Assembly (NCBI RefSeq): GCF_017348835.2
Contig: NZ_CP071375.1
Origin: Escherichia coli
Lineage (GTDB): Bacteria > Pseudomonadota > Gammaproteobacteria > Enterobacterales > Enterobacteriaceae
Strand: one strand, 5' to 3'
DNA length: 64,000 nt
Below are positions 2,886-60,981 of the stretch, piece by piece; the first letter of the stretch is position 1, and each line of letters starts with the position of its first letter. The notes beneath the pieces were generated by a model. That model saw only the letters and a list, made by a program, of their open reading frames with translations, was not told the origin of the DNA and ran no database searches. The position numbers and the translations under genes are program-made.

Positions 2886-2906
2886 TCGTTAATCCGCAAA
2901 TAACGT

Positions 2907-2933
2907 AAAAACCCGCTTCGGCGGGTTTTTTTA
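2907..2933 (+). terminator. Rho-independent terminator downstream of rpoC
   Basis: GC hairpin aaaacccgc-ttcg-gcgggt followed by a run of T. Confidence 0.85.
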
Positions 2934-3097
2934 TGGGGGGAGTTTAGGGAAAGAGCATTTGTCAGAATATTTAAGGAATTTCTGAATACTCATAATCAAT
3001 GTAGAGATGACTAATATCCTGAAACTGACTGAACTAATTGAGTCAAACTCGGCAAGGATTCGATACTATTCCTGTGTAACTTTCTTAAGGAACGAGA

Positions 3098-3627
3098 ATG
3101 AAACAGGAAGTGGAAAAGTGGCGACCTTTTGGACATCCGGATGGTGATATTCGTGATTTATCATTTCTTGATGCTCATCAGGCTGTCTACGTTCAGCATC
3201 ATGAGGGCTAGAGTATCGCTTTTGGGTTACCTACTCTCTTCACTGCTTCACAAAAGATTATGAACATCAGACGAACGAAGAAAAACAATCGTTAATGTAC
3301 CACGCGCCTAAAGAATCTCGTCCCTTCTGCCAGCACCGTTATAACTTAGCGCGCACACACTTAAAAAGAACCATTTTGGCGCTGCCAGAAAGCAATGTTA
3401 TTCATGCCGGGTATGGTAGCTATGCCGTGATTGAGGTGGACTTAGACGGAGGAGACAAGGCATTTTACTTTGTTGCGTTCAGGGCTTTCAGGGAAAAGAA
3501 AAAACTCCGTTTGCATGTAACTAGCGCTTACCCCATTTCTGAAAAACAGAAAGGTAAATCAGTGAAATTTTTCACCATTGCCTACAATTTATTGAGAAAT
3601 AAGCAGCTTCCTCAGCCCTCAAAATAA
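3098..3627 (+). pseudogene. yjaZ: yjaZ/htrC-like heat-shock protein gene disrupted by a 1-nt frameshift
   Basis: ATG 3098 with AAGGA RBS opens a frame that stops at TAG 3209-3211 after 37 codons. The frame one base over is open from 3205 to stop 3628-3630 (141 codons). Joined length ~177 aa matches the ~179 aa recalled for HtrC. The break sits at a GGG run. Confidence 0.6.
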
Positions 3628-3629
3628 CA

Positions 3630-3651
3630 AAACCCACCTTAAGGTGGGTTT
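3630..3651 (+). terminator. Hairpin downstream of yjaZ, possible terminator
   Basis: aaacccacc-ttaa-ggtgggttt inverted repeat; the T-run is short. Confidence 0.45.
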
Positions 3652-4036
3652 CGCCAGAGATAATTCTCTGGTATTCAGAACGCCATTACCGGACTTTGCC
3701 TTGACCTTGCGAGAATCGCAGGTTGCGGGATGTCTGAATTTCTTCAGTCTGCTGCATCCTGGAAGATGAGAACATGTGTTCTTATTTTCGTCTCTATCAT
3801 AGTTGAGTATTTACTCTCTTACAATCAGATCTCTTTCATTGCTCAACAGGCGATGGCTTCAGACTTTGCATTACGGAATTTTTAAGAAAGGCAGGGCGAA
3901 ACGAGGAAGAAGCTTTTCGCCCTGGACAACATTCCTGCTGACGGCACTACCATAAAAAAACACAACGCTTTCAACAACCTTGCGTTTTTCATCTTCCGTA
4001 GCGGCTCGGAATAAATTTACGTTCTTACATTCCGTC

Positions 4037-28516: not shown

Positions 28517-29704
28517 TCAGGCCATCCGACAAGCTACTGGTGAATAATCGAAGGCTTTATAGGTCAGAACAAACTCTTTATGCCCCAGCCGCTCTGCGCT
28601 ACAAAGTTTACCGCTGCTGACTTCCTCAATGCAGTGCAACATATCGCTTGCGACATCATCAAGCGATGCACCTTCACTGATAATCCTGCCAGCATTAATA
28701 TCCATATCATCCGCCATATTGGCCCAGGTTTGTGGGTTGTTACAGACTTTAATCACTGGCGCAATTACGGAGCCGATCACTGAACCTCGTCCGGTGGTAA
28801 ACAAAATCATATGACATCCGGTAGCGATAAGTTCCATCGCTTCTGATGAGTCATTGATGTTGGGATAGCCGAAACGCGCTTCGCCGTCGGGAACCACATC
28901 CATCAGATACAGACCAGGGTAAGGGGCATGTTCTGTCGGGAGTAAAACGCCCTGAATAGGGCTATCGCCTGACTTTGTATAGGCACCCAGCGATTTTTCT
29001 TCTTGCGTGGTTAACCCGCCGACGGCGTTACCGTTAGAAAAACTGCCTAAACCCATTGTCGCGTAATAGCGTTTAGCTTTATCCATTGCTGCATCAATCG
29101 CCTCTCTGGCCGCAGGTGTCGCCGCTCGCGCCATCATGTGGCCTTCACAACCAATCAACTCGCCGCTCTCTTCAAAAATGCAGGTCGCGCCTTGTGCGAG
29201 GAGTCGATCAAACGCGCGACCTACGGCAGGATTGCCCGTAATGCCGCTGGTGCCGTCGGAACCGCCGCAAATCGTACCAATAACTAAATCACTGAACGCA
29301 ATCGGGCGAACCGCCACCTGCTTAATTTGCGCCAGCATCTCTGTGACACAAACTTTGCCCCGTTTGATGGTTTCTGTAGTTCCCTTATTTTCCTGGATAA
29401 CCAGCTTATGGCATGGGCGACCACTGGCGATGACATCTTCATAAAGTTTATCGCGATCAAAGTTTTCGCAGCCGAGGGCGATAATCAACACCGCACCAAC
29501 ATTGGGATGGGTCGCCAGTCCTTTTACCAGTCGGTAGCCGTAGTCCGTGGGGTAACAGCCGGAAAAACCAAAATACTGCACGTCTTCATTTGTGAAAGAC
29601 TCAGCGATCGCTTTGGCAACGTGGCTGGCGCATTCCACCATAAAGATGACTTGTACGCTGTTACGTATACCGACTCTGCCATCTTGTCTCATGTAACCCT
29701 GCAT
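28517..29704 (-). CDS. UxaA-family (altronate/galactarate-type) sugar-acid dehydratase, catalytic large subunit
   Basis: 395-aa ORF resembling the C-terminal catalytic part of altronate dehydratase; start ATG overlaps the upstream stop by 1 nt. Confidence 0.7.
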   Translation of the reverse strand: MQGYMRQDGRVGIRNSVQVIFMVECASHVAKAIAESFTNEDVQYFGFSGCYPTDYGYRLVKGLATHPNVGAVLIIALGCENFDRDKLYEDVIASGRPCHKLVIQENKGTTETIKRGKVCVTEMLAQIKQVAVRPIAFSDLVIGTICGGSDGTSGITGNPAVGRAFDRLLAQGATCIFEESGELIGCEGHMMARAATPAAREAIDAAMDKAKRYYATMGLGSFSNGNAVGGLTTQEEKSLGAYTKSGDSPIQGVLLPTEHAPYPGLYLMDVVPDGEARFGYPNINDSSEAMELIATGCHMILFTTGRGSVIGSVIAPVIKVCNNPQTWANMADDMDINAGRIISEGASLDDVASDMLHCIEEVSSGKLCSAERLGHKEFVLTYKAFDYSPVACRMA

Positions 29705-30024
29705 CAGGCCTCTCCTGCTGGCTCATAGCCCGCATTATCATGGTGGAATACGGCGATATAATCGCTGTTCAGGTTATGGGAATGGATATGCTCGCCAATA
29801 GGGATAGCCTGACTGGCAGAGCCAATGCCTGCGCCATATTTACGAACTTTATCGCCCTGACATAACGTTTCGATTGCCAGCTTATGCCCAAGAGCAACGT
29901 AGCTTTGTGCCACAAATTCACCACCGTCATAGTGGACGCGATCGCCTTGCTGAATATCTTCCAGGGCGACAACGCAGTTATCGAGTTTGTGTAATAGCAG
30001 AGCGCGTTTATTCATGTTCACCAA
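29704..30024 (-). CDS. SAF-domain small subunit of a UxaA-family dehydratase
   Basis: 106-aa ORF resembling the N-terminal SAF domain of UxaA-type dehydratases; TGATG overlap with the large subunit. Confidence 0.65.
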   Translation of the reverse strand: MVNMNKRALLLHKLDNCVVALEDIQQGDRVHYDGGEFVAQSYVALGHKLAIETLCQGDKVRKYGAGIGSASQAIPIGEHIHSHNLNSDYIAVFHHDNAGYEPAGEA

Positions 30025-30071
30025 CTCTCCTGGTTGTGGGGATACAGGCGACCCACAGGCCGCCCGACTGT

Positions 30072-30836
30072 TTAGAAACCGATCAGCGCGCCGCCATCGA
30101 CAATCAGAACCTGACCGCTAACGAAACCGGCAGCATCAGAAGCCAGATAGGTTGCAGCCCAGCCGATATCTTCTGGTTTGCCGAATTTTTTCATCGGTGT
30201 ACGACCAAGAATTTTATTTTTACGCTCATCGTCACCCTCAATGGCTTTGCGCAGCATTGGCGTATCAATCCAGCCCGGAGCGACGCCGTTAACGCGGATC
30301 CCTGCGCCAGAAAGTTCGGTTGCCATGCCATGAATCAGCCCGAGGTAGGCAGACTTCGCGGCAGCATAGCCGGTGACATAAGGTTGACCGAGGAACGATG
30401 TCATTGAGGCGGTAAAAAGCACACAGGCATTGCCATGCTGTTTCATATGAGGGACCAGCGAGCGAGTCAGAGCGAACGCGCCAACGACATGGACATCAAG
30501 AACCGATTCAAAATCAGCGACGCTCATCTCTTCGATCGGTTTTTTACAGTGATTTCCGGCGTTATTGACCAGAATATCGATCTGATTATGCTGGCTCAGA
30601 AGGCCGTCTACCCAACTTTCCGTCTCGTCAGTGTGGGCCACATTGAACTGGCTCCAGGATGCATTTGGCCCCAGCGACTCGGCAGCGTTTTTGGCAGCTT
30701 CGCCATTGAGATCGGCAATGATGACTTTTGCGCCACAGGCGATCATGCATTTAGCCATTGCATAGCCCAGGCCACTGGCGGAACCGGTGATCAGGGCAGT
30801 TTTATTTTCCAGTGAAAAGGGGTTATTCATCGTCAT
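30072..30836 (-). CDS. Short-chain dehydrogenase/reductase (SDR) oxidoreductase
   Basis: 254-aa ORF with TGSASGLG cofactor motif and YAAAK catalytic pair. Confidence 0.8.
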   Translation of the reverse strand: MTMNNPFSLENKTALITGSASGLGYAMAKCMIACGAKVIIADLNGEAAKNAAESLGPNASWSQFNVAHTDETESWVDGLLSQHNQIDILVNNAGNHCKKPIEEMSVADFESVLDVHVVGAFALTRSLVPHMKQHGNACVLFTASMTSFLGQPYVTGYAAAKSAYLGLIHGMATELSGAGIRVNGVAPGWIDTPMLRKAIEGDDERKNKILGRTPMKKFGKPEDIGWAATYLASDAAGFVSGQVLIVDGGALIGF

Positions 30837-30861
30837 GATTTTTTTCTCGTCAGATAAAGGG

Positions 30862-31875
30862 TTAGAGGTCGATTAAAATTTTGGTGAATGCGCCGGGATC
30901 GGCGGCCCAGTCGCTGAACGCCCGATCGGCAGTATCAATCGGGTAGTGCGCGGAAATAATTAGCTCAATGGGGTAGCACTGCTTTTCCATTAAAGAGAGA
31001 ACTGCTCTGAAATCGGCAACGGTGGCGTTGCGGGAACCACGGATATCCAGCTCTTTCATGAGGAAGCGCGCGCTCTCATAATTCACCGGTTTTTTCGCAT
31101 AGCCGACGTACACCACGCGCCCGCAGAAGGCAGCCAGCTCGACTGCCTGCTCGATGGTTTTATCCAGGCCAATGGCTTCAATCACCACCGCAGGACCGCG
31201 GTCTTCGTTCAGTTTCGCCAGGATCTCAGCAACATTTTCGCGTGCGCTGTTGATATACCTTTCGGCACCACATGCCTTCGCTACCGCCTGCTTACGATCG
31301 TCGATATCAATGGCTACCACGCGACCGCCCATCGCGTTAGCTGCTGCAATAGCGCCAAGACCAATCACGCCGCAGCCCATAACGACGACCCATTCGCCAA
31401 CATTGATTTGCGCCCGGCGCGCAGCGTGAAGACCAACGGCTAATGGTTCGACTAACGCCAGTTCGTCACTGGAAAGGGAATTACAGACAATGACTTTATT
31501 GGCCGGAATAGACAGCAGCGGCACCATACCGCCCTGGCGCTGAACGCCAAGAGTCTGGTTGTTTTTACAGGCATTCGGGCGACCGCTCAGACAGGAACTG
31601 CAATGACCGCATTCGGTACAGGGCAGAACAACAACACGATCGCCTTCCAGAATATGTTTAACCTGGCTGCCTGTTTGCAGGATCTTGCCGCCGATTTCAT
31701 GACCGGGAATGCAAGGATACTGCGTGAGGGGATTTAGCCCGCGCCAGGTATTTAAATCTGAACCGCATAAACCAACTCGTTCAACACGAATTAATACATG
31801 GTCGGCTGGGCAATCAGGTTCGGCGATATCAATAAATCGCGTTACGGAACCTTTATCAATGGCTAACGCTTTCAT
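30862..31875 (-). CDS. Zinc-dependent medium-chain alcohol/polyol dehydrogenase
   Basis: Start taken at MKALAIDKG (337 aa); GHEIGG zinc motif, structural-zinc Cys cluster CTECGHCSSC, GCGVIG Rossmann motif. Confidence 0.8.
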   Translation of the reverse strand: MKALAIDKGSVTRFIDIAEPDCPADHVLIRVERVGLCGSDLNTWRGLNPLTQYPCIPGHEIGGKILQTGSQVKHILEGDRVVVLPCTECGHCSSCLSGRPNACKNNQTLGVQRQGGMVPLLSIPANKVIVCNSLSSDELALVEPLAVGLHAARRAQINVGEWVVVMGCGVIGLGAIAAANAMGGRVVAIDIDDRKQAVAKACGAERYINSARENVAEILAKLNEDRGPAVVIEAIGLDKTIEQAVELAAFCGRVVYVGYAKKPVNYESARFLMKELDIRGSRNATVADFRAVLSLMEKQCYPIELIISAHYPIDTADRAFSDWAADPGAFTKILIDL

Positions 31876-31888
31876 ATAAAAACCTTTT

Positions 31889-33187
31889 TTAAAGTGAATC
31901 GGATGAAATAACAGAATCGGTATTTTTAATATTTCTCTTAATAGGTTTAACGCCAAAGGCTACCCCAAGAGCGCCGATTACCCCAATGGCACCCGCAAGA
32001 ATAAATGCAGCAATAAAACTATTGGTATATTGGACAATGAAGCCAGTTAAAATAGGGGCGATAATTCCCGAGGTGTTTGCCAGTAAATGTACAAAACCAC
32101 CAACGCCACCGACTTTATCAGGGGAAATATTATCGGAGACAATTGCCCACGGCGCGGCAGCGGCGAGATACATAAAGAAGATACCCATTGCCATTAACAT
32201 CACTGCATTTGTTACGGAGGCAACCTGACCCGCAAAACTGATACAAATAGCCGAGAGAATTAACCCTCCAACGATAATTAACTTTCTGGCCAGCAGCAGA
32301 TTTTTGGTTTTGCGATATAACCAGTCTGAAAACATACCGCCAATAGCAATACCAACGCTACCAATAATCCACGGAATGGCCGAGGCAATACTCATCTCCT
32401 GAATATTTAGTCCCTTTTCCATTGAGAGATAACTTGGAAACCAGGTTAAAAAGAAATACAGAATATAGTTAATAGAGAAGAATGCCAGGCCAGTGAACAG
32501 AACTATAGGCTGGGTCAGGTAGAAGATAAAAGGCACTTTGGCTGAGTCAGTGCCGTAGCCTGGCGCGCCTTTTTGCGCCTCATCATACTCGGCAATTTCT
32601 TCTTTCGATGTATGAGGGTTATTATGTGGACGATCGGTAAATGCTTTAATCCAGAAAAATGTCCAGATAAAACCCAGAGACATTAAAATGATAAAAGCGA
32701 TGCGCCAGTTCCACATCACCACGATTGCGCCAACAATCGGACCCGCAATCGCACCACCCAAAGGGTTGCCCGCGTTTGCGATGCCCACAGCTCTGGCGCG
32801 CTGATCAAGCGGAACCCAGTTACTAATGCATTTGTTGATCGTCGTACTAATCGGGCCTTCGCTCATCCCGAATAATACGCGCACGATAAACAAAGATATA
32901 TAACCGAAAGCGAGGCCAGTCAGCCCACAGAACAATGACCAGGAAAGCATTGCAATGGCAAAAACTTTGCGGGGACCATAGAGATCGGATAAATAGCCAC
33001 CAACAAAGTTAAATAATGCATAACCAAAGAAAAAACTACTCAGCATAATCCCAACTTCGGCTGGGTTTAGGCCAAAATGATCTTTGATATAGGGCATTGC
33101 CACAGAAAATGCCGCACGATCGAGATAATTAATTATTCCAGCGATAAACAGCAGGAATAATATTTTGGAATGCTGTCGTTTGAACAT
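31889..33187 (-). CDS. MFS transporter, anion:cation symporter type (hexuronate/aldonate-like)
   Basis: 432-aa ORF with many hydrophobic segments and NYLDRAAFSVAMP motif near the N-terminus; AT-rich coding sequence. Confidence 0.75.
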   Translation of the reverse strand: MFKRQHSKILFLLFIAGIINYLDRAAFSVAMPYIKDHFGLNPAEVGIMLSSFFFGYALFNFVGGYLSDLYGPRKVFAIAMLSWSLFCGLTGLAFGYISLFIVRVLFGMSEGPISTTINKCISNWVPLDQRARAVGIANAGNPLGGAIAGPIVGAIVVMWNWRIAFIILMSLGFIWTFFWIKAFTDRPHNNPHTSKEEIAEYDEAQKGAPGYGTDSAKVPFIFYLTQPIVLFTGLAFFSINYILYFFLTWFPSYLSMEKGLNIQEMSIASAIPWIIGSVGIAIGGMFSDWLYRKTKNLLLARKLIIVGGLILSAICISFAGQVASVTNAVMLMAMGIFFMYLAAAAPWAIVSDNISPDKVGGVGGFVHLLANTSGIIAPILTGFIVQYTNSFIAAFILAGAIGVIGALGVAFGVKPIKRNIKNTDSVISSDSL

Positions 33188-33254
33188 AGCAAGTCCTGCA
33201 TAAATAATTTATGTGAATAGTGGTAGGGTAGAATTAATAATTTAAATATATGAT

Positions 33255-33941
33255 CTACATCACACCGAACTTTTCAAATACTTCCACGGTGCTCATGCCA
33301 TTTTTTATCGCCAGACGAACATCACTTTCGGTTGCGACTTTATTCAGTGCTTCAGCTATTACCTCCTTTTCAACTTCTTTTGGAATAACTAAAAGACCAT
33401 CGCAGTCGCCATAAATAATATCGCCGGGATTTATCACCACACCGCAAACTTCAACCGGGACGTTATAATCAATGACTTTTCCTCGCGGCCCCTGATCCTG
33501 AGCATAAGTACCATAACTAAATGTGGGGAAATTAATATCAAGAATTTCTTTAGAGTCCCGGACATAACCATCAAGAACAGCACCGGCGGCCTTAAGATGC
33601 ATAGCGCGAGTGGACATTAAACCGCCCCATAATGCGTAACGTAGCGAACTTCCTGTCGCAATATAAACATCGTTTTCTTTCAGCGAATCCAGCGCCTCAA
33701 ACATAATACCGAACGGTTTTTTACCAATTGCTGTATTCCCCGACGATGAGTGCAACTCATAAACATCGGCTTCAAGAACAGGCATAGCCCGCCCTGCGAG
33801 AACCATACTGGAGTGTAAAGGTTTCATTGAAGGAGAAACAAACTGATGCAAATATCCTTTGGTATCAAGAATATCGCCAACAACGGCAGTAAATAACTGC
33901 GTACGCATCAACTGAAAAAGTTCCTTGTCATTGTTCCACAT
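33255..33941 (-). CDS. RraA-like / class II aldolase-decarboxylase family protein
   Basis: 228-aa ORF; length and sequence resemble the RraA/HMG-CHA aldolase fold rather than 161-aa RraA itself. Confidence 0.6.
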   Translation of the reverse strand: MWNNDKELFQLMRTQLFTAVVGDILDTKGYLHQFVSPSMKPLHSSMVLAGRAMPVLEADVYELHSSSGNTAIGKKPFGIMFEALDSLKENDVYIATGSSLRYALWGGLMSTRAMHLKAAGAVLDGYVRDSKEILDINFPTFSYGTYAQDQGPRGKVIDYNVPVEVCGVVINPGDIIYGDCDGLLVIPKEVEKEVIAEALNKVATESDVRLAIKNGMSTVEVFEKFGVM

Positions 33942-33992
33942 AATTAACGATCCTGAATTGTAGTGAGGAGGTGTGAACAGAGACTAGAGTAG

Positions 33993-34025
33993 AACCTATA
34001 AACCTGTCAAACAGGTTTATAGGTT
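33993..34025. promoter_or_regulatory. Perfect 15-bp inverted repeat, candidate operator in the divergent promoter region
   Basis: AACCTATAAACCTGT-caa-ACAGGTTTATAGGTT, 52 bp upstream of the RraA-like gene start and ~210 bp upstream of the GntR-type regulator gene. Confidence 0.55.
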
Positions 34026-34236
34026 GAAGAGTGTAAACGATCGCACTCTGCGAGCCTCTTCACAATTTCAGCTATGGTTTACTGCGATCGCTTTTCAACC
34101 GGATGCGTCCTATCGCTGCTACGCCTTTTTCGGTAACATACGAACCAAAGGTAGGAGGGATTATCTGTAACGCTATGATTTTTAAGTTTTAGATAAGATA
34201 TGTTGCGGCTGAAACAGGTAATATCTGCTCGGTAAA

Positions 34237-34965
34237 TTGATGGCAAGAATGATGACAACGAAAATTCAGCTAGAAAGTAACACGCTCTCAGCCCAGGTAC
34301 GAGACTACATACTGTCGTTAATTGCGCGGCAAAAGTTAACCGTCGGGATGCCGGTGCCCAGTGAAATGCAACTTACCCAGGAACTTGGCGTCAGTAAGGG
34401 CGTTGTCCGTGAGGCCTATCGTTCACTTGCCGCCCTTGGAATACTCGAAACCAAAAGTGGTAAAGTGCCACGCATTAAAGCCTTTGATTCTAGCGTGTTG
34501 CAGGTCATTTTTTCCTTTGCGACGCTGACCGAGCAGGTCAGTTCTTCACAGATACTTGCCGCCAGACGTTGGCTGGAAGCCGGATGCGTACAAATGGCGG
34601 CGCTCAATGGAGATGAAGAGGATTTTGCTGCGCTGAAGCAAGAAATGTCGTTGATACGCGAAGAGTTTTCTGACACCGAGCGTTTCCTGGAACATGATTT
34701 AAATTTCCATTTGCTGTTATCGCAGGCATCTAAAAATCCTTTATTCAGCATTCTGTTGCAGGCTTTACACACCCAGTTAACCCACTCAATGCGAGCGGGT
34801 CTGGAAGCACAACGCAATAATCATGAATATGAGCGTGGGATAATTGCATTGCACCAACGTGTTTGTGACTGTGTTTGTAATCGCGATGCTGAAGGTGCGA
34901 TGAAAGCCATGGATGAGCATTTCAACCTCTCTTCTGATGCTTTAAACAATCAGTCTCCTCTTTAA
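34237..34965 (+). CDS. GntR/FadR-family transcriptional regulator
   Basis: 242-aa ORF with N-terminal winged-HTH (QLTQELGVSKGVVREAYRSLAALGILE) and a C-terminal helical ligand domain; divergent from the catabolic genes. Confidence 0.8.
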   Translation: MMARMMTTKIQLESNTLSAQVRDYILSLIARQKLTVGMPVPSEMQLTQELGVSKGVVREAYRSLAALGILETKSGKVPRIKAFDSSVLQVIFSFATLTEQVSSSQILAARRWLEAGCVQMAALNGDEEDFAALKQEMSLIREEFSDTERFLEHDLNFHLLLSQASKNPLFSILLQALHTQLTHSMRAGLEAQRNNHEYERGIIALHQRVCDCVCNRDAEGAMKAMDEHFNLSSDALNNQSPL

Positions 34966-38332: not shown

Positions 38333-42224
<3,892 letters not shown>

Positions 42225-50258: not shown

Positions 50259-51488
50259 TTAATCATGGGAAATTGCCTCTGCATGAGTGAGCAGATATTG
50301 CTCCGCCTCACCGGACCAGATCCCCTGATGACGCGCCAGAATCGCCGCCAGTGCTTGATCCTGAATCTGCGTGAGTGACGTCAGCGGCAGGTATTTCTCG
50401 GTATACACCAGCTTTTTGCCGCCGCCGACGGCAGGCAATTCAAGCGTGGTTTCGCCCGCGGCATTCAGCCCAAGAATATGTGTTACCACTTTTGCGGCCT
50501 GCACTTTTTTCTCTTCGATCAGTTTGACCGCCGCGCGCATGTCGTCGGTATTGCCGCCTGACGTGCCCACGTAGTGGGTAAATGCATAATGCACATCGTA
50601 GAAATTAATTGGCGCGCTGAAATGTTTATCCTGCGGTCCGGCGAAGAAATTCAGGCAACCATCTGTCGCCAGCAAGGAAGAGGCGAGAGTCACCAGTCCT
50701 TCATTAGGCACAAAGACGAAAATATCATCGAAGCCGTGACCGCCACTCAGCGCCATTAGCGTATCAAATGCTGCATCGGTGGCATTGAGATAATGAATCA
50801 GTGTTTGCGGTTCTGATGGATAGTGCTTGCGCGCATAACTCAATTTATCGTTGTCGGTATCGGTAATGACGAGCAGCGACGGGTTAACGGGTCCATGTAG
50901 CGCATAATCAATCGCCAACAGTCCCATTGGTCCGGTGCCGCCGAGGATCAGCGTGCGCCCTTGCGGGCGAATCCCCATCGTGTGGTTATAACTACCTTCC
51001 TGAAGATGATAGTTGGCGTTGAACGCGCCAATCACGCAGGAAAGTGGTTCAACCAGCGAGCCTTCAAAATAGGTTTCGCCGTCGTATGCCAGCAGGCAAT
51101 CTTGTTCCATGACCTCGTTGGGAATAACCACATGCGTGGCTTCGCCGCCCACCCACGGGAAGGAGTAGCCGGGGCAGTCCGGGCGATCCGGCAATTGCAG
51201 GTTGGCCTGAATCACATAACGCTGACCCGGCTGGAATTTGTGCTGCCACTTTTTACCCACGGCCAGAATATCGCCGCAAAACTCGTGGCCGATGATGATT
51301 GGGTTGGTCGCCACATCGTCGGGTACTTTTTTATGGTTTTCACCCAGGTTGGCCTCTTTCCAGGAAGAGAGGCACAGGCTGTCAGTGACCACCGTCGCGA
51401 GGATTTCATCCTCCTGCATTTCAGGAAGGTCAAAGGTTTCCAGGCGTAAATCACGTTTACCATAAAGACGCAGAGCTGTTGTTTTCAT
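50259..51488 (-). CDS. sorE: Zinc-dependent dehydrogenase, sorbose-1-phosphate reductase-like
   Basis: Start taken at MKTTALRLYG with GAGGTG RBS (409 aa); GHEFCG zinc motif; last gene of a sor-type operon. Confidence 0.7.
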   Translation of the reverse strand: MKTTALRLYGKRDLRLETFDLPEMQEDEILATVVTDSLCLSSWKEANLGENHKKVPDDVATNPIIIGHEFCGDILAVGKKWQHKFQPGQRYVIQANLQLPDRPDCPGYSFPWVGGEATHVVIPNEVMEQDCLLAYDGETYFEGSLVEPLSCVIGAFNANYHLQEGSYNHTMGIRPQGRTLILGGTGPMGLLAIDYALHGPVNPSLLVITDTDNDKLSYARKHYPSEPQTLIHYLNATDAAFDTLMALSGGHGFDDIFVFVPNEGLVTLASSLLATDGCLNFFAGPQDKHFSAPINFYDVHYAFTHYVGTSGGNTDDMRAAVKLIEEKKVQAAKVVTHILGLNAAGETTLELPAVGGGKKLVYTEKYLPLTSLTQIQDQALAAILARHQGIWSGEAEQYLLTHAEAISHD

Positions 51489-51539
51489 AAACCACCTCAT
51501 GTTGAGCGATGGCCCCGGCAGTCGTGCCGGGGCGAAGAA

Positions 51540-52394
51540 TCAGGACAGGAAGCCCAGCGCATTGCCGATAATCCCTAAGCCAAACAGGGCGAAAATCAGC
51601 CATACCGGGTTAATTTTTTTGTTGAGCAGACGAACCATTAGTAGCGTCAGACCGAGCGCCAGCAAACCAGGGCAAAGTTGGTCGAGAATGTTCTGCACGG
51701 TCATGATGACGGTGGAGCCATCGGCGGCATGCGTTTGTGAAACCACCAACGGTACGTTGATTGACGTCCATTTGGTGACCAGCACGCCCATCACAAACAG
51801 TCCGAGAATCGACGCGCCTTCGGTGAGTTTTTGCAGCAAATTACCGCCCATATCGCTGACGATATTCACCCCTTTGCGAAAGCCGAGCTGGAGGCCATAC
51901 CACTTCATCGCCAGACGCACCGCGTTGAAAATAAAGAAGAACAGCAGCGGGCCGAGAATGTTGCCCGAAAGTGCCAGAGATGCGCCGAGCGCGGCGGTAA
52001 TCGGGCGCAGCGTTCCCCAGACCAGTGGATCGCCAACCCCTGCCAATGGTCCCATCAGACCGACTTTGATGCCGTTAATGGTGCCGTCATCAATTTCCGC
52101 GCCGTTGGCCCGCGCCTCTTCCATGGCGGCAGTGACGCCGATGACCGGGCCACATACGGCTGGCGTGGTATTGAAGAACACCAGGTGTCGCCTGAGCGCC
52201 GCAACCTGATCCTCTTTTAATGGGTAAAGTCGCTTGATGGCGGGGATCATGTCGTAGCAAAAGCCCAGCCCGTGAATACGTTCAAAGTTAAAGGACGCCT
52301 GTTGCAGGTTGGAGCGCAGAAACATGCTCACCAGATCGCTGCGTGTAATTTTTCTCTGTTCCATGATGGCTCCGTTAATCGTCAAGTTGGTCAA
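51540..52394 (-). CDS. sorM: PTS mannose/sorbose-family EIID component
   Basis: 284-aa hydrophobic ORF; start may be the internal MEQRK at 52364. Confidence 0.8.
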   Translation of the reverse strand: MTNLTINGAIMEQRKITRSDLVSMFLRSNLQQASFNFERIHGLGFCYDMIPAIKRLYPLKEDQVAALRRHLVFFNTTPAVCGPVIGVTAAMEEARANGAEIDDGTINGIKVGLMGPLAGVGDPLVWGTLRPITAALGASLALSGNILGPLLFFFIFNAVRLAMKWYGLQLGFRKGVNIVSDMGGNLLQKLTEGASILGLFVMGVLVTKWTSINVPLVVSQTHAADGSTVIMTVQNILDQLCPGLLALGLTLLMVRLLNKKINPVWLIFALFGLGIIGNALGFLS

Positions 52395-53172
52395 GGGCGG
52401 TGGAAGCGGGGGCCTGGAGCTGAGGTTCAGCTTTACGCCACTGTGGATTTAACTGGATGTAGACCAGGGCCATGATCACGCCGACGCCACCGAACGCCAG
52501 CAGACTGAGATCGAGGTAGCCACCTGCGAGGAAACCGAGGAAAAAGAAAGGCATCAAATATTTCACGCCCATCATACGTAGCACCATGGCGTAACCGACC
52601 ACCACGATAAAACCGCCAGCAATCTGTAGTCCTCGGGTCACAAATTCGGGAATGGCGTTTAACATATTGCTCACCATATCGGCGCTGACGAACAGCGAGA
52701 CAATCAGTGCCGGAACAGCAACGCGCAGCGCCTGCACGCCAAGCGCGGAGACATGCAGAATATCGAGAGTGCGAAACCGTGCTTCTTCCGCTGCTTTATC
52801 CGCCGCGTGCTGGAACACTACGGTGATGGTACGTGCAAACACCGTCAGCACCTGGCCTGCCGCAGCCACAGGCAACGCGATGGCGATTCCGGTGGCGATG
52901 CTTTGCTGACCAACGATAACCAGAATGGCGGAGATTATGCTGGCGAGTGCAGAATCCGGAGATTGCGCCGCGCCGACGTTCATCCAGCCGAGAGCTATCA
53001 ATTCCAGCGTACCACCGAGTATTATTCCGGTTTTTAAATCACCGAGAATTAAACCAATCACCGTACAGGCAATTAACGGGCGATGAGTCTGGAATTCATC
53101 CAGCACGCTGCCCATTCCGGCAATACAGGAAAAAAGAAATATAGCAATAATTTGTAGGGTACTTATTTCCAT
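52375..53172 (-). CDS. sorA: PTS mannose/sorbose-family EIIC component
   Basis: 265-aa integral membrane ORF MEISTLQIIAIFLFSCIAGMGSVLDEF... Confidence 0.8.
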   Translation of the reverse strand: MEISTLQIIAIFLFSCIAGMGSVLDEFQTHRPLIACTVIGLILGDLKTGIILGGTLELIALGWMNVGAAQSPDSALASIISAILVIVGQQSIATGIAIALPVAAAGQVLTVFARTITVVFQHAADKAAEEARFRTLDILHVSALGVQALRVAVPALIVSLFVSADMVSNMLNAIPEFVTRGLQIAGGFIVVVGYAMVLRMMGVKYLMPFFFLGFLAGGYLDLSLLAFGGVGVIMALVYIQLNPQWRKAEPQLQAPASTALDQLDD

Positions 53173-53237
53173 GATTTGTCACCTTTTAAGTGTCGTCATC
53201 CCTGCCTGTTAAAGCATATGTACACAGGCGCTATTAT

Positions 53238-53732
53238 TTAATTTGCGATTAACTGTTCGTTTATTTTGTCGATAATATTGATTGAGGGATCTGACGCTAC
53301 GACGCGTAAATCCAGTATGACGCCAAGATTATTTAACTCATGAAATGCGTTAATATCATCATCATCTAATGAAACCGCTTTGGTTAACTGTTTTTTACCG
53401 GGCCGCCAGGCCATGCCGCCAATATTCAGGGTGCCTATTTTTACCCCCTGGCGAACCATCGCTAAGGCATCCTGTGGGCGAGTGAAAAGATAAAAAACGG
53501 TTTCGTCCTGATATTGCGGGTTGTGATAAACCGCGACGGCTTTTTCAATATTGACCACGTTAACCTTCATTCCCGGTGGCGCAGCCTGACGCAATAATGT
53601 CCGGCGAACTTCATCGTTATAAACTTCGTCATTGCAGATAATAATGCGCTGGGCGTTAGCCACTTTCGACCAGACGGTAGTGACCTGACCGTGGATCAGG
53701 CGGTCATCAATGCGGGCGAGCGTAATGTTCAT
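53238..53732 (-). CDS. sorB: PTS mannose/sorbose-family EIIB component
   Basis: 164-aa ORF with the IIB-Man signature ARIDDRLIHGQV (phospho-His). Confidence 0.85.
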   Translation of the reverse strand: MNITLARIDDRLIHGQVTTVWSKVANAQRIIICNDEVYNDEVRRTLLRQAAPPGMKVNVVNIEKAVAVYHNPQYQDETVFYLFTRPQDALAMVRQGVKIGTLNIGGMAWRPGKKQLTKAVSLDDDDINAFHELNNLGVILDLRVVASDPSINIIDKINEQLIAN

Positions 53733-54139
53733 CAGAAATCCTCCTCTGCCGTTGCCACCTGTCTCCAGACGACGCAGGATTGCTTTGCGATTTGCGTCAG
53801 GTGTTCACACAGTTCATCAACATTCATGCTGTCCTGGTTATCAACCAGTTCGAGCGCCAGCGGCAGAGAAAGGCCGCTGATTACCCGCAAACGAGGATTG
53901 CGCATCGCAAGCATCGCTGCCGCATTCCACGGGCTGCCGCACTGTAAATCCACGGCAATCAGCCACTCATCTTGATTGTGAATGCTTACTAACTTTTCCA
54001 GCTTTACCACAATGTCTCCGGCGTTTTCACCGGGCACAAATTCAACGGCTTCAACATTGGCGTTGCCGTAAACCATCTGAACCGATTCCAGCATGGCGCA
54101 AGCTAATTTGCCGTGGGCACAAAAAATGGCGTTGACCAT
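53732..54139 (-). CDS. sorF: PTS mannose/sorbose-family EIIA component
   Basis: 135-aa ORF MVNAIFCAHGKLA... (IIA-Man N-terminal His); 1-nt overlap with sorB. Confidence 0.8.
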   Translation of the reverse strand: MVNAIFCAHGKLACAMLESVQMVYGNANVEAVEFVPGENAGDIVVKLEKLVSIHNQDEWLIAVDLQCGSPWNAAAMLAMRNPRLRVISGLSLPLALELVDNQDSMNVDELCEHLTQIAKQSCVVWRQVATAEEDF

Positions 54140-54148
54140 AAAGCCTCC

Positions 54149-54955
54149 TTATCCGCGCGTTTTGCCGCCCGCAATGTTAGTGGTTACTCCGGTGATGTAG
54201 CTGGCGCGTTCAGACAACAGATAACAAACAAAATCAGCGACTTCTGCTAATCTACCGGCGCGCCCAATAGGAATGGCGTTTTTGGTATAGCCTTCACGCA
54301 GCTGCTCGACGGTGATATTGCGCGTCCACGCCAGCGCTTCTTCATATTCCGGCGTGCGCAGTCCTGTTTTTTCCAGAATCCCCGGCGCGATACCGACCAC
54401 ACGGATACCGTGTTTACCCAATTCTTTCGACCAGGAGCGCGTGAAGCTATTGAGCGCGGCTTTGGTAGCGGCGTAACAGCTTTGTCCTTCTGAGCCTTCC
54501 AGCCCACTTTCTGAGGAAACATTCACAATCACGCCATCATGTTGTTTGACCATCTGTCGCGCCACCGCCTGCGACATCAGAAAAACACCTTTCTGGTTGA
54601 TATTGACCATTTTTTCGAATGCAGCTTCGTTGAGTTCATACTGCCCGGCAGGCGCTTTCTCATCGACCAGCAGACGCGGGAAATTGACCCCGGCGTTATT
54701 GACCAGACCGTCGATGCGACCAAAACGCTGGATAATTTCCGCTACCGTATGATTTACCTCTTTGGCGCTGGAAATATCGGTCGGCCAAAACTGATAGCCT
54801 TTATGACCTTCATATTGTCCATCGCCACCGTGAATATCGACCATCTGTACATTCGCGCCTTGTGCTAATAATTCCTCTACAATCGCCAGACCAATACCGG
54901 ATGCGCCGCCGGTGACGATAATGATTTTATCCTGCAAATTTAACCACGTTTGCAT
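54149..54955 (-). CDS. sorD: SDR dehydrogenase, sorbitol-6-phosphate dehydrogenase-like
   Basis: 268-aa ORF with TGGASGIG and YAATK motifs. Confidence 0.78.
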   Translation of the reverse strand: MQTWLNLQDKIIIVTGGASGIGLAIVEELLAQGANVQMVDIHGGDGQYEGHKGYQFWPTDISSAKEVNHTVAEIIQRFGRIDGLVNNAGVNFPRLLVDEKAPAGQYELNEAAFEKMVNINQKGVFLMSQAVARQMVKQHDGVIVNVSSESGLEGSEGQSCYAATKAALNSFTRSWSKELGKHGIRVVGIAPGILEKTGLRTPEYEEALAWTRNITVEQLREGYTKNAIPIGRAGRLAEVADFVCYLLSERASYITGVTTNIAGGKTRG

Positions 54956-55024
54956 AACAGACTCCTGATTTTAGATAATAGGGACCCGCCGTAATTTTTA
55001 TTACGATAAACATCGGGAAGATTT

Positions 55025-55972
55025 TTATTTCAGTAATAGTTCAGCTGTGCTGCTATTCGTTACCAGACAATTAATATATTTTCCACGCAGTGCACCAATA
55101 ATTCCGCTGTATTTTTCTTCACTCATGGCAATGCCAATGGAATATCGTGCCTGCTTTAATTTATTCATTTCGATAGAGAGTGTTTTTTCGCTCATATTCG
55201 TTTCAACCATTGCGCCGTGAATATCAAAAAAGCGCGAGCAAATATCGCCAGCAACCTGGCGGGCATTCAGGTCGTCACTCTCTTCACCACCATAAAACGC
55301 ATGCCAGTTAGCGCCGTCGCGAATGGCCGGTGAGCCAATTCCCACCAGGGCGACATCCAGATTATCCCAGTAGGCAGAGATGGTTTTAAAGTGCTGAGAC
55401 TGCATGATCCCATTACGAATTAAGGGGTTATCCAGCAGAGCCGGAAAATCCGCGAGATGCGATTCCCCTTTCAGCTTCGCTGCCGCGCTGTAGGTTAATG
55501 TGTTTACGTGATAGCGGCTTTCGAGTTTACCGGACGGTCCGCCAATAATTGGCACGCAGATTAACTGCCGCGATTGCCCCGCTTGCGGCAAGTTTTCAAC
55601 CAGTGCGCTCACCGCGCGACCCCAGGAAAAACCGACAATATCGCCAGGCTCCAGCAAGCGATCCAGCAGTTGCGCGCCGTGTAACCCCATCATCGCCAGT
55701 TGAGTCTCTTCATCCTCATCATTTCCCGACACCACCACAACGTCTTTCAGGCCAAACTTTTGCTTCAGTTGCTGCTCGAGCCAGAGATTTTCGTTGTAGT
55801 CATAGTTGATGGCGATGGTGACAATTCCCTGATCGCGGCCTCGTTTAAGCAAGCGGCTGATGGTGGTGCGGTAAATACCCAGTTCGCGCGCGATTTGCGC
55901 CTGCGTCATATCCTGTTCGTAATAGAGTTGGGCAATCTTCACAATCAAACGGATATCGTCACTGTTTTCCAT
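55025..55972 (-). CDS. sorC: SorC-family transcriptional regulator
   Basis: Start taken at MENSDDIRL with AGGAGG RBS (315 aa); N-terminal HTH (MTQAQIARELGIYRTTISRLL) plus sugar-binding domain. Confidence 0.8.
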   Translation of the reverse strand: MENSDDIRLIVKIAQLYYEQDMTQAQIARELGIYRTTISRLLKRGRDQGIVTIAINYDYNENLWLEQQLKQKFGLKDVVVVSGNDEDEETQLAMMGLHGAQLLDRLLEPGDIVGFSWGRAVSALVENLPQAGQSRQLICVPIIGGPSGKLESRYHVNTLTYSAAAKLKGESHLADFPALLDNPLIRNGIMQSQHFKTISAYWDNLDVALVGIGSPAIRDGANWHAFYGGEESDDLNARQVAGDICSRFFDIHGAMVETNMSEKTLSIEMNKLKQARYSIGIAMSEEKYSGIIGALRGKYINCLVTNSSTAELLLK

Positions 55973-56319
55973 TGCCGCCTCCTGGTTCTGCACATTTGTG
56001 CAAATACGCTTTCTCACCGCTTGATCTGATATAACCCCATCATGATGGCCTTTCAAAGCGATTTTTCACTCTTTGCATGGGGAGAAATAGCGCTTTCTCT
56101 TGCACATTTGTTTCTCTGCGCAGTAGTCATCAGCACAGGTGTGCAGCGATTCGTAATATGTTGATTATCCTTATTTTGCCAGGCAAATTTGCATTGTACT
56201 TCCGGAGACACTTTTGTGATAAAAGGCGTGGCAGATCACATTTAATTTCGACGTTGCCGCATAACTCTGTTTTTCCCTGCTAAGAGGTACGGTATATTCC
56301 GCGTTTTACAGGAGAATTT

Positions 56320-57993: not shown

Positions 57994-59121
57994 ATGATTA
58001 AAAAAATAAGCGTAAGAAAAGATCAGCTGGCATTACTCTCCAGAAACGGCGATTACTACAAAGTGCTGCATGCAGGCGAGCATATTTTACCCTGGTTAAA
58101 TACCCCGGAAGTGTTGCTGATTACGCTGGATGGTAGCGAAGTTCCCGACGTGCTTGCGGATTATTTGCGCCGCTTTCAGCCTGATTGGGTGGAGAAATAT
58201 TGCCTGGTGGCAGACTTGTCGGAGACTGAAGCCGGGGTGTTGTATATGGACGGTATTTTGTTGGAGATCCTGCCGCCATCAACGCGTCGTTTGTACTGGC
58301 GTGTAGAGGATGATTTGACGCTGGTGCGGATGAATACGCAGCAAGTCCCGGTACAAACGGAGGTGATGAATGCGGTATTACAGCCACGGCGCAAAGGAGT
58401 TGTTAAAGGCCGCGATGCGATACTGACGGTGCAGGTTCCGGCCTGGCATGTAGGCGTGCTGAAAATCGATGGTGAAACGCAGGCGCTGTTACCGCCGGGG
58501 CTGACTGCGTACTGGAAAATAAATCATCTGGTTGAAGCTGAAGTTGTCGACACCCGCTTGCAGGTACTGGAAGTCAGCGGGCAAGAAATCTTAACGAAAG
58601 ATAAGGTCAATCTGCGGATTAATCTCGCCGCTAACTGGCGCTATAGCGATGTGTTGCTGGCATTTAGTCAGCTAACGAAGCCGATTGATCATTTGTATCG
58701 GGAATTACAATTTGCCCTGCGTGAAGCGGTAGGTACGCGCACACTGGATGAACTGCTGGAAGATAAACAGGTCATTGATGACGTTGTTAGCGAGCAGGTG
58801 AAACTACGCATGAAGCCGTTCGGTATGGAGATCGCTTCGTTAGGAGTAAAAGATATCGTCCTGCCTGGCGATATGAAAAATATTCTTGCGCAACTGGTAG
58901 AGGCGGAGAAATCCGCGCAGGCCAATGTGATTCGCCGACGTGAAGAAACGGCAGCGACGCGCTCGTTACTGAACACCGCCAAAGTCATGGAGAACAATCC
59001 GGTAGCGTTGCGTTTAAAAGAGCTGGAAACGCTGGAGAGAGTGGCTGAGCGGATTGATAACATCTCTGTATTTGGCGGTCTGGATCAGGTTCTGCATGGG
59101 TTGGTTAATATCAAAGGGTGA
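57994..59121 (+). CDS. SPFH/band-7 (stomatin-like) domain protein with an unassigned ~180-aa N-terminal region
   Basis: 375-aa ORF with RBS. C-terminal half (GQEILTKDKVNLRINLAANWRY...IASLGVKDIVLPGDMKNILAQLVEAEKSAQANVIRRRE...) is stomatin/prohibitin-like. No obvious transmembrane helix. Confidence 0.7.
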   Translation: MIKKISVRKDQLALLSRNGDYYKVLHAGEHILPWLNTPEVLLITLDGSEVPDVLADYLRRFQPDWVEKYCLVADLSETEAGVLYMDGILLEILPPSTRRLYWRVEDDLTLVRMNTQQVPVQTEVMNAVLQPRRKGVVKGRDAILTVQVPAWHVGVLKIDGETQALLPPGLTAYWKINHLVEAEVVDTRLQVLEVSGQEILTKDKVNLRINLAANWRYSDVLLAFSQLTKPIDHLYRELQFALREAVGTRTLDELLEDKQVIDDVVSEQVKLRMKPFGMEIASLGVKDIVLPGDMKNILAQLVEAEKSAQANVIRRREETAATRSLLNTAKVMENNPVALRLKELETLERVAERIDNISVFGGLDQVLHGLVNIKG

Positions 59122-59126
59122 GTAAC

Positions 59127-59918
59127 ATGCCATTAAATGGAGTCAGTGCTGCGATGCGCGAAAGGGTATCGCAGCAGTTAAAAGAAATTGAACGTCGCTA
59201 TGGCGTGAAAGTGCTGTACGCCTGCGAATCGGGGAGTCGCGGCTGGGGATTTGCTTCGCCCGACAGCGATTACGATGTGCGGTTTTTGTATGTCCATCCG
59301 CTGGAATGGTATCTGCGGGTAGAGGCACCACGCGATGTTATCGAACTGCCCATCGACGACGAGTTAGATGTTTCCGGTTGGGAATGGCGCAAAGCGCTGG
59401 GATTGCTGAAAGGTGCGAATCCCACGCTAATTGAATGGCTGGATTCACCGGTGGTCTATCAGCAAGATGAAGAGACGATAACGGCGCTTAAGGCAATGGT
59501 CCCAACGTGGTTTTCTCCGTTGCGTGCGCGCTGGCATTACTATTCGATGGCGCAGAAAAACTTCCGCGGATATTTGCAGGGCGATGAAGTTCGACTGAAA
59601 AAATACTTTTACGTGCTGCGTCCGTTGCTGGCCGTGCGTTGGGTTGAAGCGGGAAAAGGCGTACCGCCAATGCGTTTTTCCGAATTGCTGGCGGGAAGTG
59701 AGTTGGATGCGGCCTTACGCGCAGAAATAGATGAATTACTGGAACGTAAACAGCGTGCGGGTGAAGCGGAATATGGCCCACGCCGTCCATTGCTACATGC
59801 GTTTATCCATGCGGAACTGGCGCGTGGGGAAATTCCGCCTGTGTTACCGGATAGTAGAGAAGGGGACGTTAAGAAACTGGATAGCTTACTGTACCAGACG
59901 GTAATGCGCCGGGCGTGA
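59127..59918 (+). CDS. Pol-beta-superfamily nucleotidyltransferase
   Basis: 263 aa from ATG 59127 (a GTG at 59118 would overlap the upstream stop by 4 nt); motif GSRGWGFASPDSDYDV fits GS-x10-DhDh. Confidence 0.7.
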   Translation: MPLNGVSAAMRERVSQQLKEIERRYGVKVLYACESGSRGWGFASPDSDYDVRFLYVHPLEWYLRVEAPRDVIELPIDDELDVSGWEWRKALGLLKGANPTLIEWLDSPVVYQQDEETITALKAMVPTWFSPLRARWHYYSMAQKNFRGYLQGDEVRLKKYFYVLRPLLAVRWVEAGKGVPPMRFSELLAGSELDAALRAEIDELLERKQRAGEAEYGPRRPLLHAFIHAELARGEIPPVLPDSREGDVKKLDSLLYQTVMRRA

Positions 59919-59933
59919 TGCCCGGCGTTATTT
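59908..59933. terminator. Bidirectional terminator-like hairpin between convergent genes
   Basis: cgccgggc-gtga-gcccggcg followed by TTATTT; spans the nucleotidyltransferase stop codon. Confidence 0.6.
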
Positions 59934-59950
59934 CAGGTCATCAGCTTTTA

Positions 59951-60880: not shown

Positions 60881-60981
60881 TAACACTCCTGTTAAATAAT
60901 ATTTTTCGGTGATTATAATACTGTTCTACAGGAGTGATTTTGCATTTCAGATATTATTTAATCTATGTTTGCAGTGAGGAT

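What the first reader, a model, noticed from the sequence alone, without database searches (positions are those of the whole stretch)
3098..3627. yjaZ (htrC) open reading frame broken by a 1-nt frameshift at a G-run
A well-placed ATG with RBS opens a frame that ends at TAG 3209-3211 after 37 codons. The frame shifted by one base is open from 3205 for 141 codons. Together they reconstitute about 177 aa, close to the ~179 aa recalled for HtrC. The break is at GAGGGCTAG; one extra G would give HHEG-LEYRFW in a single frame.
Basis: seen in the sequence. Interest (0 to 1): 0.45.

Follow-up and report, generated by a model that had tools for sequence, protein, structure and literature searches.

The report
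yjaZ pseudogene: a 10-bp deletion
The small E. coli accessory gene yjaZ (old name htrC) is broken here by an inherited 10-base deletion, not by one missing G or a sequencing error; this is ordinary gene decay already flagged in public annotations.

Summary
ATG 3098 opens a 37-codon frame that ends at TAG 3209-3211, and the -1 frame is open over 3205-3627. The two pieces equal K-12 YjaZ residues 1-37 and 41-179 with no amino-acid change.

The proposed lesion is wrong. Alignment with K-12 shows a 10-bp deletion (AAAGAGCCTT) between 3208 and 3209. It removes K38-E39-P40 plus one base. It has a single possible placement and no junction microhomology, and it is not in the G-run.

The same junction occurs in three complete RefSeq genomes: PE164, F2_81 and A30. 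All three are annotated "frameshifted" pseudogenes. A30 differs by 1.2% in the flanks, so the allele is inherited and not an artefact.

Substitutions against K-12 are 5 synonymous and 0 non-synonymous, so the loss looks recent. No slippery heptamer or downstream RNA structure supports programmed frameshifting.

The locus decays repeatedly in E. coli:
- About 31% of complete genomes lack the whole yjaZ-sroH segment.
- O157:H7 has a 71-bp deletion.
- Other genomes carry W46*, Q67*, ±1 frameshifts, IS insertions or a 5' truncation.

YjaZ function is unknown. The predicted fold gives only a weak RelE/ParE-like hint. Interest is low.

The parts
3098..3627 (+). yjaZ (htrC) pseudogene, 530 bp versus 540 bp in K-12
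   Evidence: Alignment to K-12 MG1655, PE164 and A30. RefSeq annotates the identical sequence as pseudo, 'frameshifted'.
3087..3091 (+). SD-like AAGGA, 6 nt upstream of ATG 3098
   Evidence: Read directly from the sequence. The start codon is the one annotated in K-12.
3098..3211 (+). N-terminal remnant ORF: 37 codons plus a premature TAG created by the deletion
   Evidence: Matches NF007263 profile positions 1-37.
3208..3209 (+). Deletion junction: the 10 bp AAAGAGCCTT present in K-12 are missing between these two bases
   Evidence: Reading the sequence shows only one possible placement and 0 bp of microhomology.
3205..3627 (+). Out-of-frame (-1) C-terminal coding remnant, equal to YjaZ residues 41-179, with no start codon before ATG 3295
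   Evidence: Scores 327 bits to NF007263 over profile positions 41-179.
3295..3627 (+). 110-aa ORF (YjaZ residues 70-179) that gene callers report for broken alleles; no SD-like sequence precedes it
   Evidence: The upstream sequence was read.
2907..2933 (+). rpoC terminator hairpin with a T-run, upstream boundary of the yjaZ unit
   Evidence: Sequence. The terminator scan flagged the palindrome.
3629..3789 (-). sroH sRNA gene, convergent with yjaZ and intact; its 3' hairpin abuts the yjaZ stop
   Evidence: Rfam RF00372, 190.6 bits against a gathering score of 80.
2938..3872 (.). Low-GC (0.40-0.44) variable segment carrying yjaZ and sroH; replaced by about 23 nt in roughly 31% of complete E. 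coli genomes

Best explanation
This is a lineage-specific loss-of-function allele of the accessory gene yjaZ. A single 10-bp deletion (AAAGAGCCTT, K-12 yjaZ nt 112-121) removed codons K38-E39-P40 plus one base. That put TAG in frame right after G37. Translation from the normal start therefore yields a 37-aa peptide lacking 19 of the family's 22 invariant positions. The remaining 139 codons are out of frame and have no start or ribosome-binding site of their own before M70. The allele is inherited, being shared by a small clade or haplotype that includes pig isolates PE164 and F2_81 and baboon isolate A30. It is evolutionarily recent and has no known phenotypic cost, because yjaZ is dispensable and is often lost or broken in E. 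coli. Shown here: the deletion, its distribution, and the frame consequences. Inferred: absence of functional protein, and neutrality or benefit of the loss.
For: The 10-bp gap against K-12 appears. K-12 YjaZ is 179 aa and reads HHEGKEPLEYRFW. A junction-specific search found ungapped matches only in PE164, F2_81 and A30; the other roughly 3,730 yjaZ-bearing complete genomes align with a 10-nt gap. All three carriers are annotated pseudo/frameshifted. The window is 99.97% identical to PE164 over 64 kb and identical to F2_81 over the first 20 kb. A30 differs by 270 mismatches in 23.7 kb yet carries the same gap. Substitutions against K-12 are 5 synonymous and 0 non-synonymous in the window, and 6 and 0 in A30. 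The family alignment has 22 invariant columns, of which only W8, D20 and L21 precede the break. The pieces hit NF007263 at positions 1-37 and 41-179. On dispensability, the Keio delta-yjaZ::kan allele is used as a neutral marker linked to rpoC (PMC4666387), and the htrC functional designation has been retracted (PMC11551758). About 31% of complete genomes lack the segment. Independent lesions exist elsewhere.
Against: No expression or protein data were available, so absence of any full-length product is inferred. A low level of spontaneous -1 slippage of tRNA-Gly from GGC to GGG at the G_GGC_UAG stop cannot be excluded, and it would give a 176-aa protein lacking KEP. I could not inspect raw reads of the source assembly. 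Whether A30 shares the allele by descent or by recombination is unresolved.
Confidence: 0.93

Rival explanations
1. Sequencing or assembly artefact: the gene is intact in the organism, and the break is a miscalled homopolymer (one G missing), as the first reader suggested checking.
For: The break lies next to a GGG run. The window differs from PE164 by 12 gap positions over 64 kb, so some indel noise between assemblies exists.
Against: The G-run has the same length as in K-12, and the difference is a 10-bp non-homopolymer block. The identical gap is present in three independently produced complete genomes from China, Australia and a baboon study. It sits on a background 1.2% diverged in A30.
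Confidence: 0.02
2. Programmed or tolerated -1 ribosomal frameshift at G_GGC_UAG restores a near-full-length (176 aa, KEP-less) YjaZ, so the gene is still functional.
For: The required shift is -1. P-site tRNA-Gly could re-pair with GGG in two of three positions. The stop codon would pause the ribosome, and the KEP positions are in a variable part of the family alignment.
Against: There is no X_XXY_YYZ slippery heptamer. RNA downstream of the stop is less structured than shuffled controls (z = +1.4 and +1.4). The arrangement is not conserved: it occurs in 3 of about 3,733 genomes, and all others have a plain ORF. Programmed frameshifts are conserved features.
Confidence: 0.02
3. Split gene: the 110-aa C-terminal ORF (ATG 3295) is translated on its own and keeps part of the function.
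For: The ORF is intact, with no non-synonymous change. It covers the C-terminal half, which gives the weak RelE/ParE-like fold hits. The same ORF is left in many other broken alleles.
Against: No SD-like sequence lies within 15 nt upstream of ATG 3295. The ORF lacks invariant positions W8, D20, L21, Y43, F45, Y49, H52, F54, K56 and L69, and the two N-terminal strands 27-33 and 41-49 of the predicted fold. It scores 250.7 bits, below the family cutoff of 324. Its intactness is explained by the recency of the deletion.
Confidence: 0.03

Closest known systems
E. coli K-12 yjaZ (b4001; old name htrC, 'heat-shock protein C'; NCBIfam NF007263 'stationary phase growth adaptation protein YjaZ'; Pfam PF27200)
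   Same: Same locus (rpoC - yjaZ - sroH - thiH) and same start codon. All 176 retained codons are identical at the amino-acid level, with 5 synonymous differences.
   Different: The window lacks 10 bp (nt 112-121), so the reading frame is broken after codon 37.
yjaZ pseudogenes annotated 'frameshifted' in RefSeq genomes PE164 (NZ_CP114128.1), F2_81 (NZ_CP043542.1) and A30 (NZ_CP028745.1)
   Same: Identical deletion junction. PE164 and F2_81 are identical to the window over 2900-3700, and A30 has one synonymous SNP in the gene.
   Different: None at the lesion. The window is not byte-identical to PE164 (5 mismatches and 12 gap positions in 64 kb).
Other natural yjaZ lesions in E. coli: O157:H7 71-bp deletion ('protein HtrC', 147 aa), W46* (G137A or G138A), Q67* (C199T), +A at nt 164, -C at nt 199, 5-bp deletion at nt 191, IS3-family insertion, 5' truncation in 33F4, and complete absence in APEC O1-like genomes
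   Same: Same gene and same outcome: loss or truncation of YjaZ. Each is confined to few genomes or one lineage.
   Different: They have different positions and mutational types, so they are independent events. The window's lesion is the only one at nt 112-121 found in complete genomes.
Programmed frameshift genes (prfB +1, dnaX -1, IS1/IS3 transposases -1)
   Same: Two overlapping frames that together encode one protein, with a stop codon at the shift site as in prfB.
   Different: There is no slippery heptamer, no stimulatory SD at the right spacing for a -1 shift, and no downstream structure. The frameshift is also not conserved among relatives.

Membership tests
YjaZ family (NCBIfam NF007263 equivalog / Pfam PF27200) | Full-length match to the 179-position profile above the curated cutoff (324 bits) | tested here: met
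   The K-12 orthologue scores 430 bits over 1-179. The window's two frame pieces match positions 1-37 (81.9 bits) and 41-179 (327.4 bits). Homology is therefore met at the DNA or conceptual level, but no single ORF in the window encodes a full-length member.
YjaZ family (NCBIfam NF007263 equivalog / Pfam PF27200) | Orthologous position in E. coli: between the rpoC terminator and sroH/thiH | tested here: met
YjaZ family (NCBIfam NF007263 equivalog / Pfam PF27200) | Uninterrupted ORF retaining the family's invariant residues (a functional member) | tested here: not met
   A premature TAG follows codon 37, and 19 of 22 invariant positions are out of frame. This is a pseudogene of the family and not a functional member.
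Programmed -1 ribosomal frameshift sites | Slippery heptamer X_XXY_YYZ at the frame junction | tested here: not met
   The junction reads CAU_GAG_GGC_UAG, where only a single-tRNA GGC-to-GGG slip is conceivable.
Programmed -1 ribosomal frameshift sites | Stimulatory downstream RNA structure | tested here: not met
   Fold z-scores are +1.44 and +1.40 against shuffles for 3212-3271 and 3215-3300. No Rfam frameshift element was found.
Programmed -1 ribosomal frameshift sites | Conservation of the two-frame arrangement among homologues | tested here: not met
   Only 3 of about 3,733 yjaZ-bearing complete genomes have it, and family members in other genera are single ORFs.
RelE/ParE-superfamily (BECR-fold) toxins, considered for the intact YjaZ protein only | Significant structural similarity to solved RelE/ParE/HigB/YoeB toxins | tested here: inconclusive
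RelE/ParE-superfamily (BECR-fold) toxins, considered for the intact YjaZ protein only | Sequence-profile relationship or an adjacent antitoxin gene | tested here: not met
   A profile search of PDB sequences found nothing relevant. There were no Pfam toxin or PADLOC hits. The gene is solitary in E. coli, Aeromonas and a cyanobacterium.

The most novel reading that the evidence does not exclude
Intact YjaZ may be a self-contained toxin-like protein, with a C-terminal RelE/ParE-like domain guarded by its own N-terminal domain, or some other costly mobile defence or addiction gene. It is about 50% identical from enterobacteria and their plasmids to Aeromonas and cyanobacteria. It sits in a low-GC insertion that is present or absent among E. 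coli, and it is repeatedly knocked out by independent mutations. Under this reading the 10-bp deletion is one of many adaptive escapes from a costly gene and not neutral decay.
Probability: 0.07. Interest if true: 0.45.

Novelty: already known. Interest (0 to 1): 0.08.

Why it matters
It matters little. The result corrects the lesion from a 1-nt G-run slip to a 10-bp deletion and rules out a sequencing artefact. It also gives a clean 10-bp indel marker for a small E. coli lineage that includes the pig isolates PE164 and F2_81 and the baboon isolate A30. More broadly, yjaZ has no established function, is highly conserved and patchily distributed across phyla, and is recurrently lost in E. coli. 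That makes the intact family, rather than this allele, a reasonable target for functional study.

Tried and rejected
- The 1-nt G-run frameshift was rejected by direct alignment.
- Sequencing error was rejected because the identical allele occurs in three independent complete genomes, including a diverged background.
- Slippage between direct repeats as the origin was rejected. GAG repeats at 9-nt spacing would give 9- or 18-bp in-frame deletions. The 10-bp deletion has a unique placement and no junction microhomology. It removes 10 of the 11 nt of a small quasi-palindrome (AAAG-AGC-CTTT), which is only a speculative cause.
- Programmed frameshifting was rejected.
- Searches for YjaZ function led nowhere. 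The local Pfam copy has no model, although precomputed tables list PF27200 'YjaZ'. PADLOC, PHROGs, PDB sequence and profile searches were empty. Foldseek against PDB and BFVD gave nothing significant. The afdb50 library was unavailable.
- Junction queries for two other alleles seen in the protein database found no carrier among complete genomes. These were the 5-bp TAGAG deletion and the 10-bp GCGCTGCCAG deletion. I therefore do not claim that disruption is common, since each lesion is rare (W46*: 4 of 3,732 genomes).
- One search was a script path error with no result.

Full report
**Observation**

The window starts inside rpoC (ORF to 2885). An intergenic terminator follows, then the region in question, then thiH-thiG-thiS-thiF-thiE on the minus strand.

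At 3098 an ATG preceded by AAGGA (3087-3091) opens a 37-codon frame that stops at TAG 3209-3211. The frame one base back is open from 3205 to the stop at 3625-3627. The coordinates and frame arithmetic in the finding are correct.

**Identity**

A megablast of 2900-3700 against 5,426 complete E. coli genomes hits yjaZ in 3,740 of them. K-12 MG1655 annotates a 540-bp yjaZ ('heat-shock protein C', WP_001307500.1) at the same place between rpoC and thiH. Its product is 179 aa.

The window's first piece equals residues 1-37 and its second piece equals residues 41-179, with no amino-acid difference. Against NCBIfam NF007263 (YjaZ equivalog) the pieces match profile positions 1-37 and 41-179. Exactly positions 38-40 are missing.

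**The real lesion**

Nucleotide alignment of the window with K-12, PE164 and A30 shows one gap. K-12 reads CATGAGGGC-AAAGAGCCTT-TAGAGTATCGC, and the window lacks the ten bases AAAGAGCCTT.

The GGG run has the same length in both sequences. Reading the sequence, the deletion can be placed in only one way and has no microhomology at its ends. GAG repeats spaced 9 nt apart would give in-frame 9-bp losses, so simple slippage does not explain it.

The ten bases comprise three codons (K38, E39, P40) plus one base, hence the net -1 frame change and the TAG that becomes in-frame.

**Real allele or artefact**

An 80-nt junction query matches without a gap in only three complete genomes:
- PE164 (pig, China), 100%
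- F2_81 (pig, Australia), 100%
- A30 (baboon), one SNP

All other matching genomes, about 3,730, align at 88.9% because of the 10-nt gap. RefSeq annotates yjaZ in all three carriers as a pseudogene, 'frameshifted'.

The window is 99.97% identical to PE164 over all 64 kb but not identical (5 mismatches, 12 gap positions). It is identical to F2_81 over its first 20 kb. A30 differs from the window by 270 mismatches in 23.7 kb (1.2%) and still has the same gap.

A non-homopolymer 10-bp gap shared by independent assemblies on diverged backgrounds is an inherited allele. It is not a base-calling error.

**Age and consequence**

Relative to K-12, the retained codons show 5 synonymous and 0 non-synonymous differences in the window, and 6 and 0 in A30. 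The gene was therefore under purifying selection for most of that divergence, and the deletion is recent.

An alignment of 38 family members from enterobacteria, Aeromonas, Oceanimonas, Thiolinea and cyanobacteria has 22 invariant columns. Only W8, D20 and L21 lie before the break. A confident AlphaFold model (pLDDT 87, pTM 0.84) folds residues 27-170 as one alpha/beta unit. A 37-aa stub cannot be functional.

The only start codon in the downstream frame is ATG 3295 (M70), and it has no SD-like sequence. That 110-aa product would lack ten invariant positions and two strands of the fold, and it scores below the family cutoff.

**Rival: recoding**

Rejoining the frames needs a -1 shift at CAU_GAG_GGC_UAG. 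There is no X_XXY_YYZ heptamer. The 60-86 nt downstream fold less well than shuffled controls (z = +1.4), and Rfam finds no element there. The two-frame arrangement is confined to 3 of about 3,733 genomes.

Low-level spontaneous slippage of tRNA-Gly from GGC to GGG cannot be excluded, but nothing suggests it is programmed.

**Context: a gene that is often lost**

Roughly 31% of complete E. coli genomes, APEC O1 among them, have rpoC and thiH but lack a segment of about 936 bp (window about 2938-3872). About 23 unrelated nucleotides stand in its place. The segment has GC of 0.40-0.44, against 0.52-0.61 in the flanks. It carries yjaZ and, on the opposite strand, the sRNA gene sroH (3629-3789, 190.6 bits).

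Other lesions found:
- O157:H7 genomes have a 71-bp internal deletion and a 147-aa 'protein HtrC'.
- ET650 has IS1 just upstream of yjaZ.
- 33F4, the next-closest genome to the window by flanking sequence, has a 5'-truncated yjaZ.
- The 110-aa C-terminal ORF is on record as a called gene in 1,576 blocks of the public assembly collection. Ten examples analysed carry independent lesions: G137A (W46*), G138A (W46*), C199T (Q67*), +A at nt 164, -C at nt 199, a 5-bp deletion at nt 191, and an IS3-family insertion.

Each lesion is rare among complete genomes. W46* occurs in 4 of 3,732. Two further alleles seen in the protein database were absent from complete genomes. The picture is sporadic, recurrent decay and not a sweep.

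This fits the literature. The Keio delta-yjaZ::kan allele is used as a neutral marker linked to rpoC (PMC4666387). The rpoC-htrC interval is described as 'featureless' and used for marker insertion (PMC7160681). The original heat-shock designation htrC has been retracted (PMC11551758).

**What YjaZ is**

Its function is unknown. The precomputed domain tables of the protein collection assign it to PF27200 'YjaZ'. My local Pfam copy, PADLOC, PHROGs and the PDB sequence and profile searches gave nothing.

Homologues are solitary genes in unrelated neighbourhoods. In Aeromonas the gene lies next to a prophage tail module, in a cyanobacterium it lies between sodB and pyrF, and in Raoultella it is on a plasmid. 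About 50% identity across phyla indicates horizontal spread under strong constraint.

**Verdict**

What is there is an ordinary, recent, lineage-specific 10-bp deletion pseudogene of a dispensable accessory gene. It is already annotated as such in RefSeq, so novelty is 'already known' and interest is low.

Noticed in passing
window 3629-3789 (- strand): An intact sroH sRNA gene (Rfam RF00372, 190.6 bits) is convergent with yjaZ. Its terminal palindrome AAACCCACCTTAAGGTGGGTTT starts right after the yjaZ stop. A sigma-70-like TTGTAA-17-TATGAT lies at 3824->3796, just upstream of its 5' end.
   Followed up: partly
window 3654-3671: A hairpin-loop 'flip' lies inside sroH. The stem CCAGAGA/TCTCTGG is unchanged, but the 4-nt loop is TAAT in the window and F2_81, and its reverse complement ATTA in K-12, A30 and O157:H7. 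This is the signature of a small inversion of a palindrome.
   Followed up: partly
window ~2938-3872: The whole low-GC (0.40-0.44) yjaZ-sroH segment is a presence/absence polymorphism. About 31% of complete E. coli genomes (APEC O1, for example) have about 23 unrelated nt instead. O157:H7 has a 71-bp deletion inside yjaZ, and 33F4 has a 5'-truncated copy.
   Followed up: yes
window 57994-60886: An accessory trio sits between yjbD and lysC: an SPFH/Band 7 slipin (57994-59121, +), an RlaP Pol-beta-family nucleotidyltransferase (59118-59918, +, start overlapping the slipin stop) and a zeta-toxin-family P-loop protein (59951-60886, -). None matches PADLOC v2, so it could be an uncharacterised defence or TA-like module.
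   Followed up: partly
window 28517-34965: A six- to seven-gene island lies between metA and aceB, which are adjacent in K-12-like EC1515. From the PE164 annotation it encodes two UxaA-family hydrolase pieces, an SDR oxidoreductase, a zinc alcohol dehydrogenase, an MFS transporter, an RraA-family protein and a GntR/FadR regulator. It looks like a sugar-acid catabolic island.
   Followed up: no
window 40038-42224 (- strand): A 728-aa ORF annotated in PE164 as the type III effector EspL4 lies between iclR and aceK. My recollection is that K-12 has arpA at this position; this was not checked here.
   Followed up: no
window ~50259-56056: An L-sorbose PTS utilisation cluster (regulator, SDR, IIA/IIB/IIC/IID, sorE) is present between rluF and pepE according to the PE164 annotation. 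It is an accessory operon in E. coli.
   Followed up: no
L012 5001-5543 (Aeromonas hydrophila CP053883.1) and L014 5001-5555 (Waterburya sp.): YjaZ-family genes about 50% identical to the E. coli protein occur as solitary genes in unrelated contexts. In Aeromonas the gene is beside a P2/HP1-like prophage tail module, and in the cyanobacterium it is between sodB and pyrF. This suggests horizontal spread of a strongly constrained orphan protein.
   Followed up: partly
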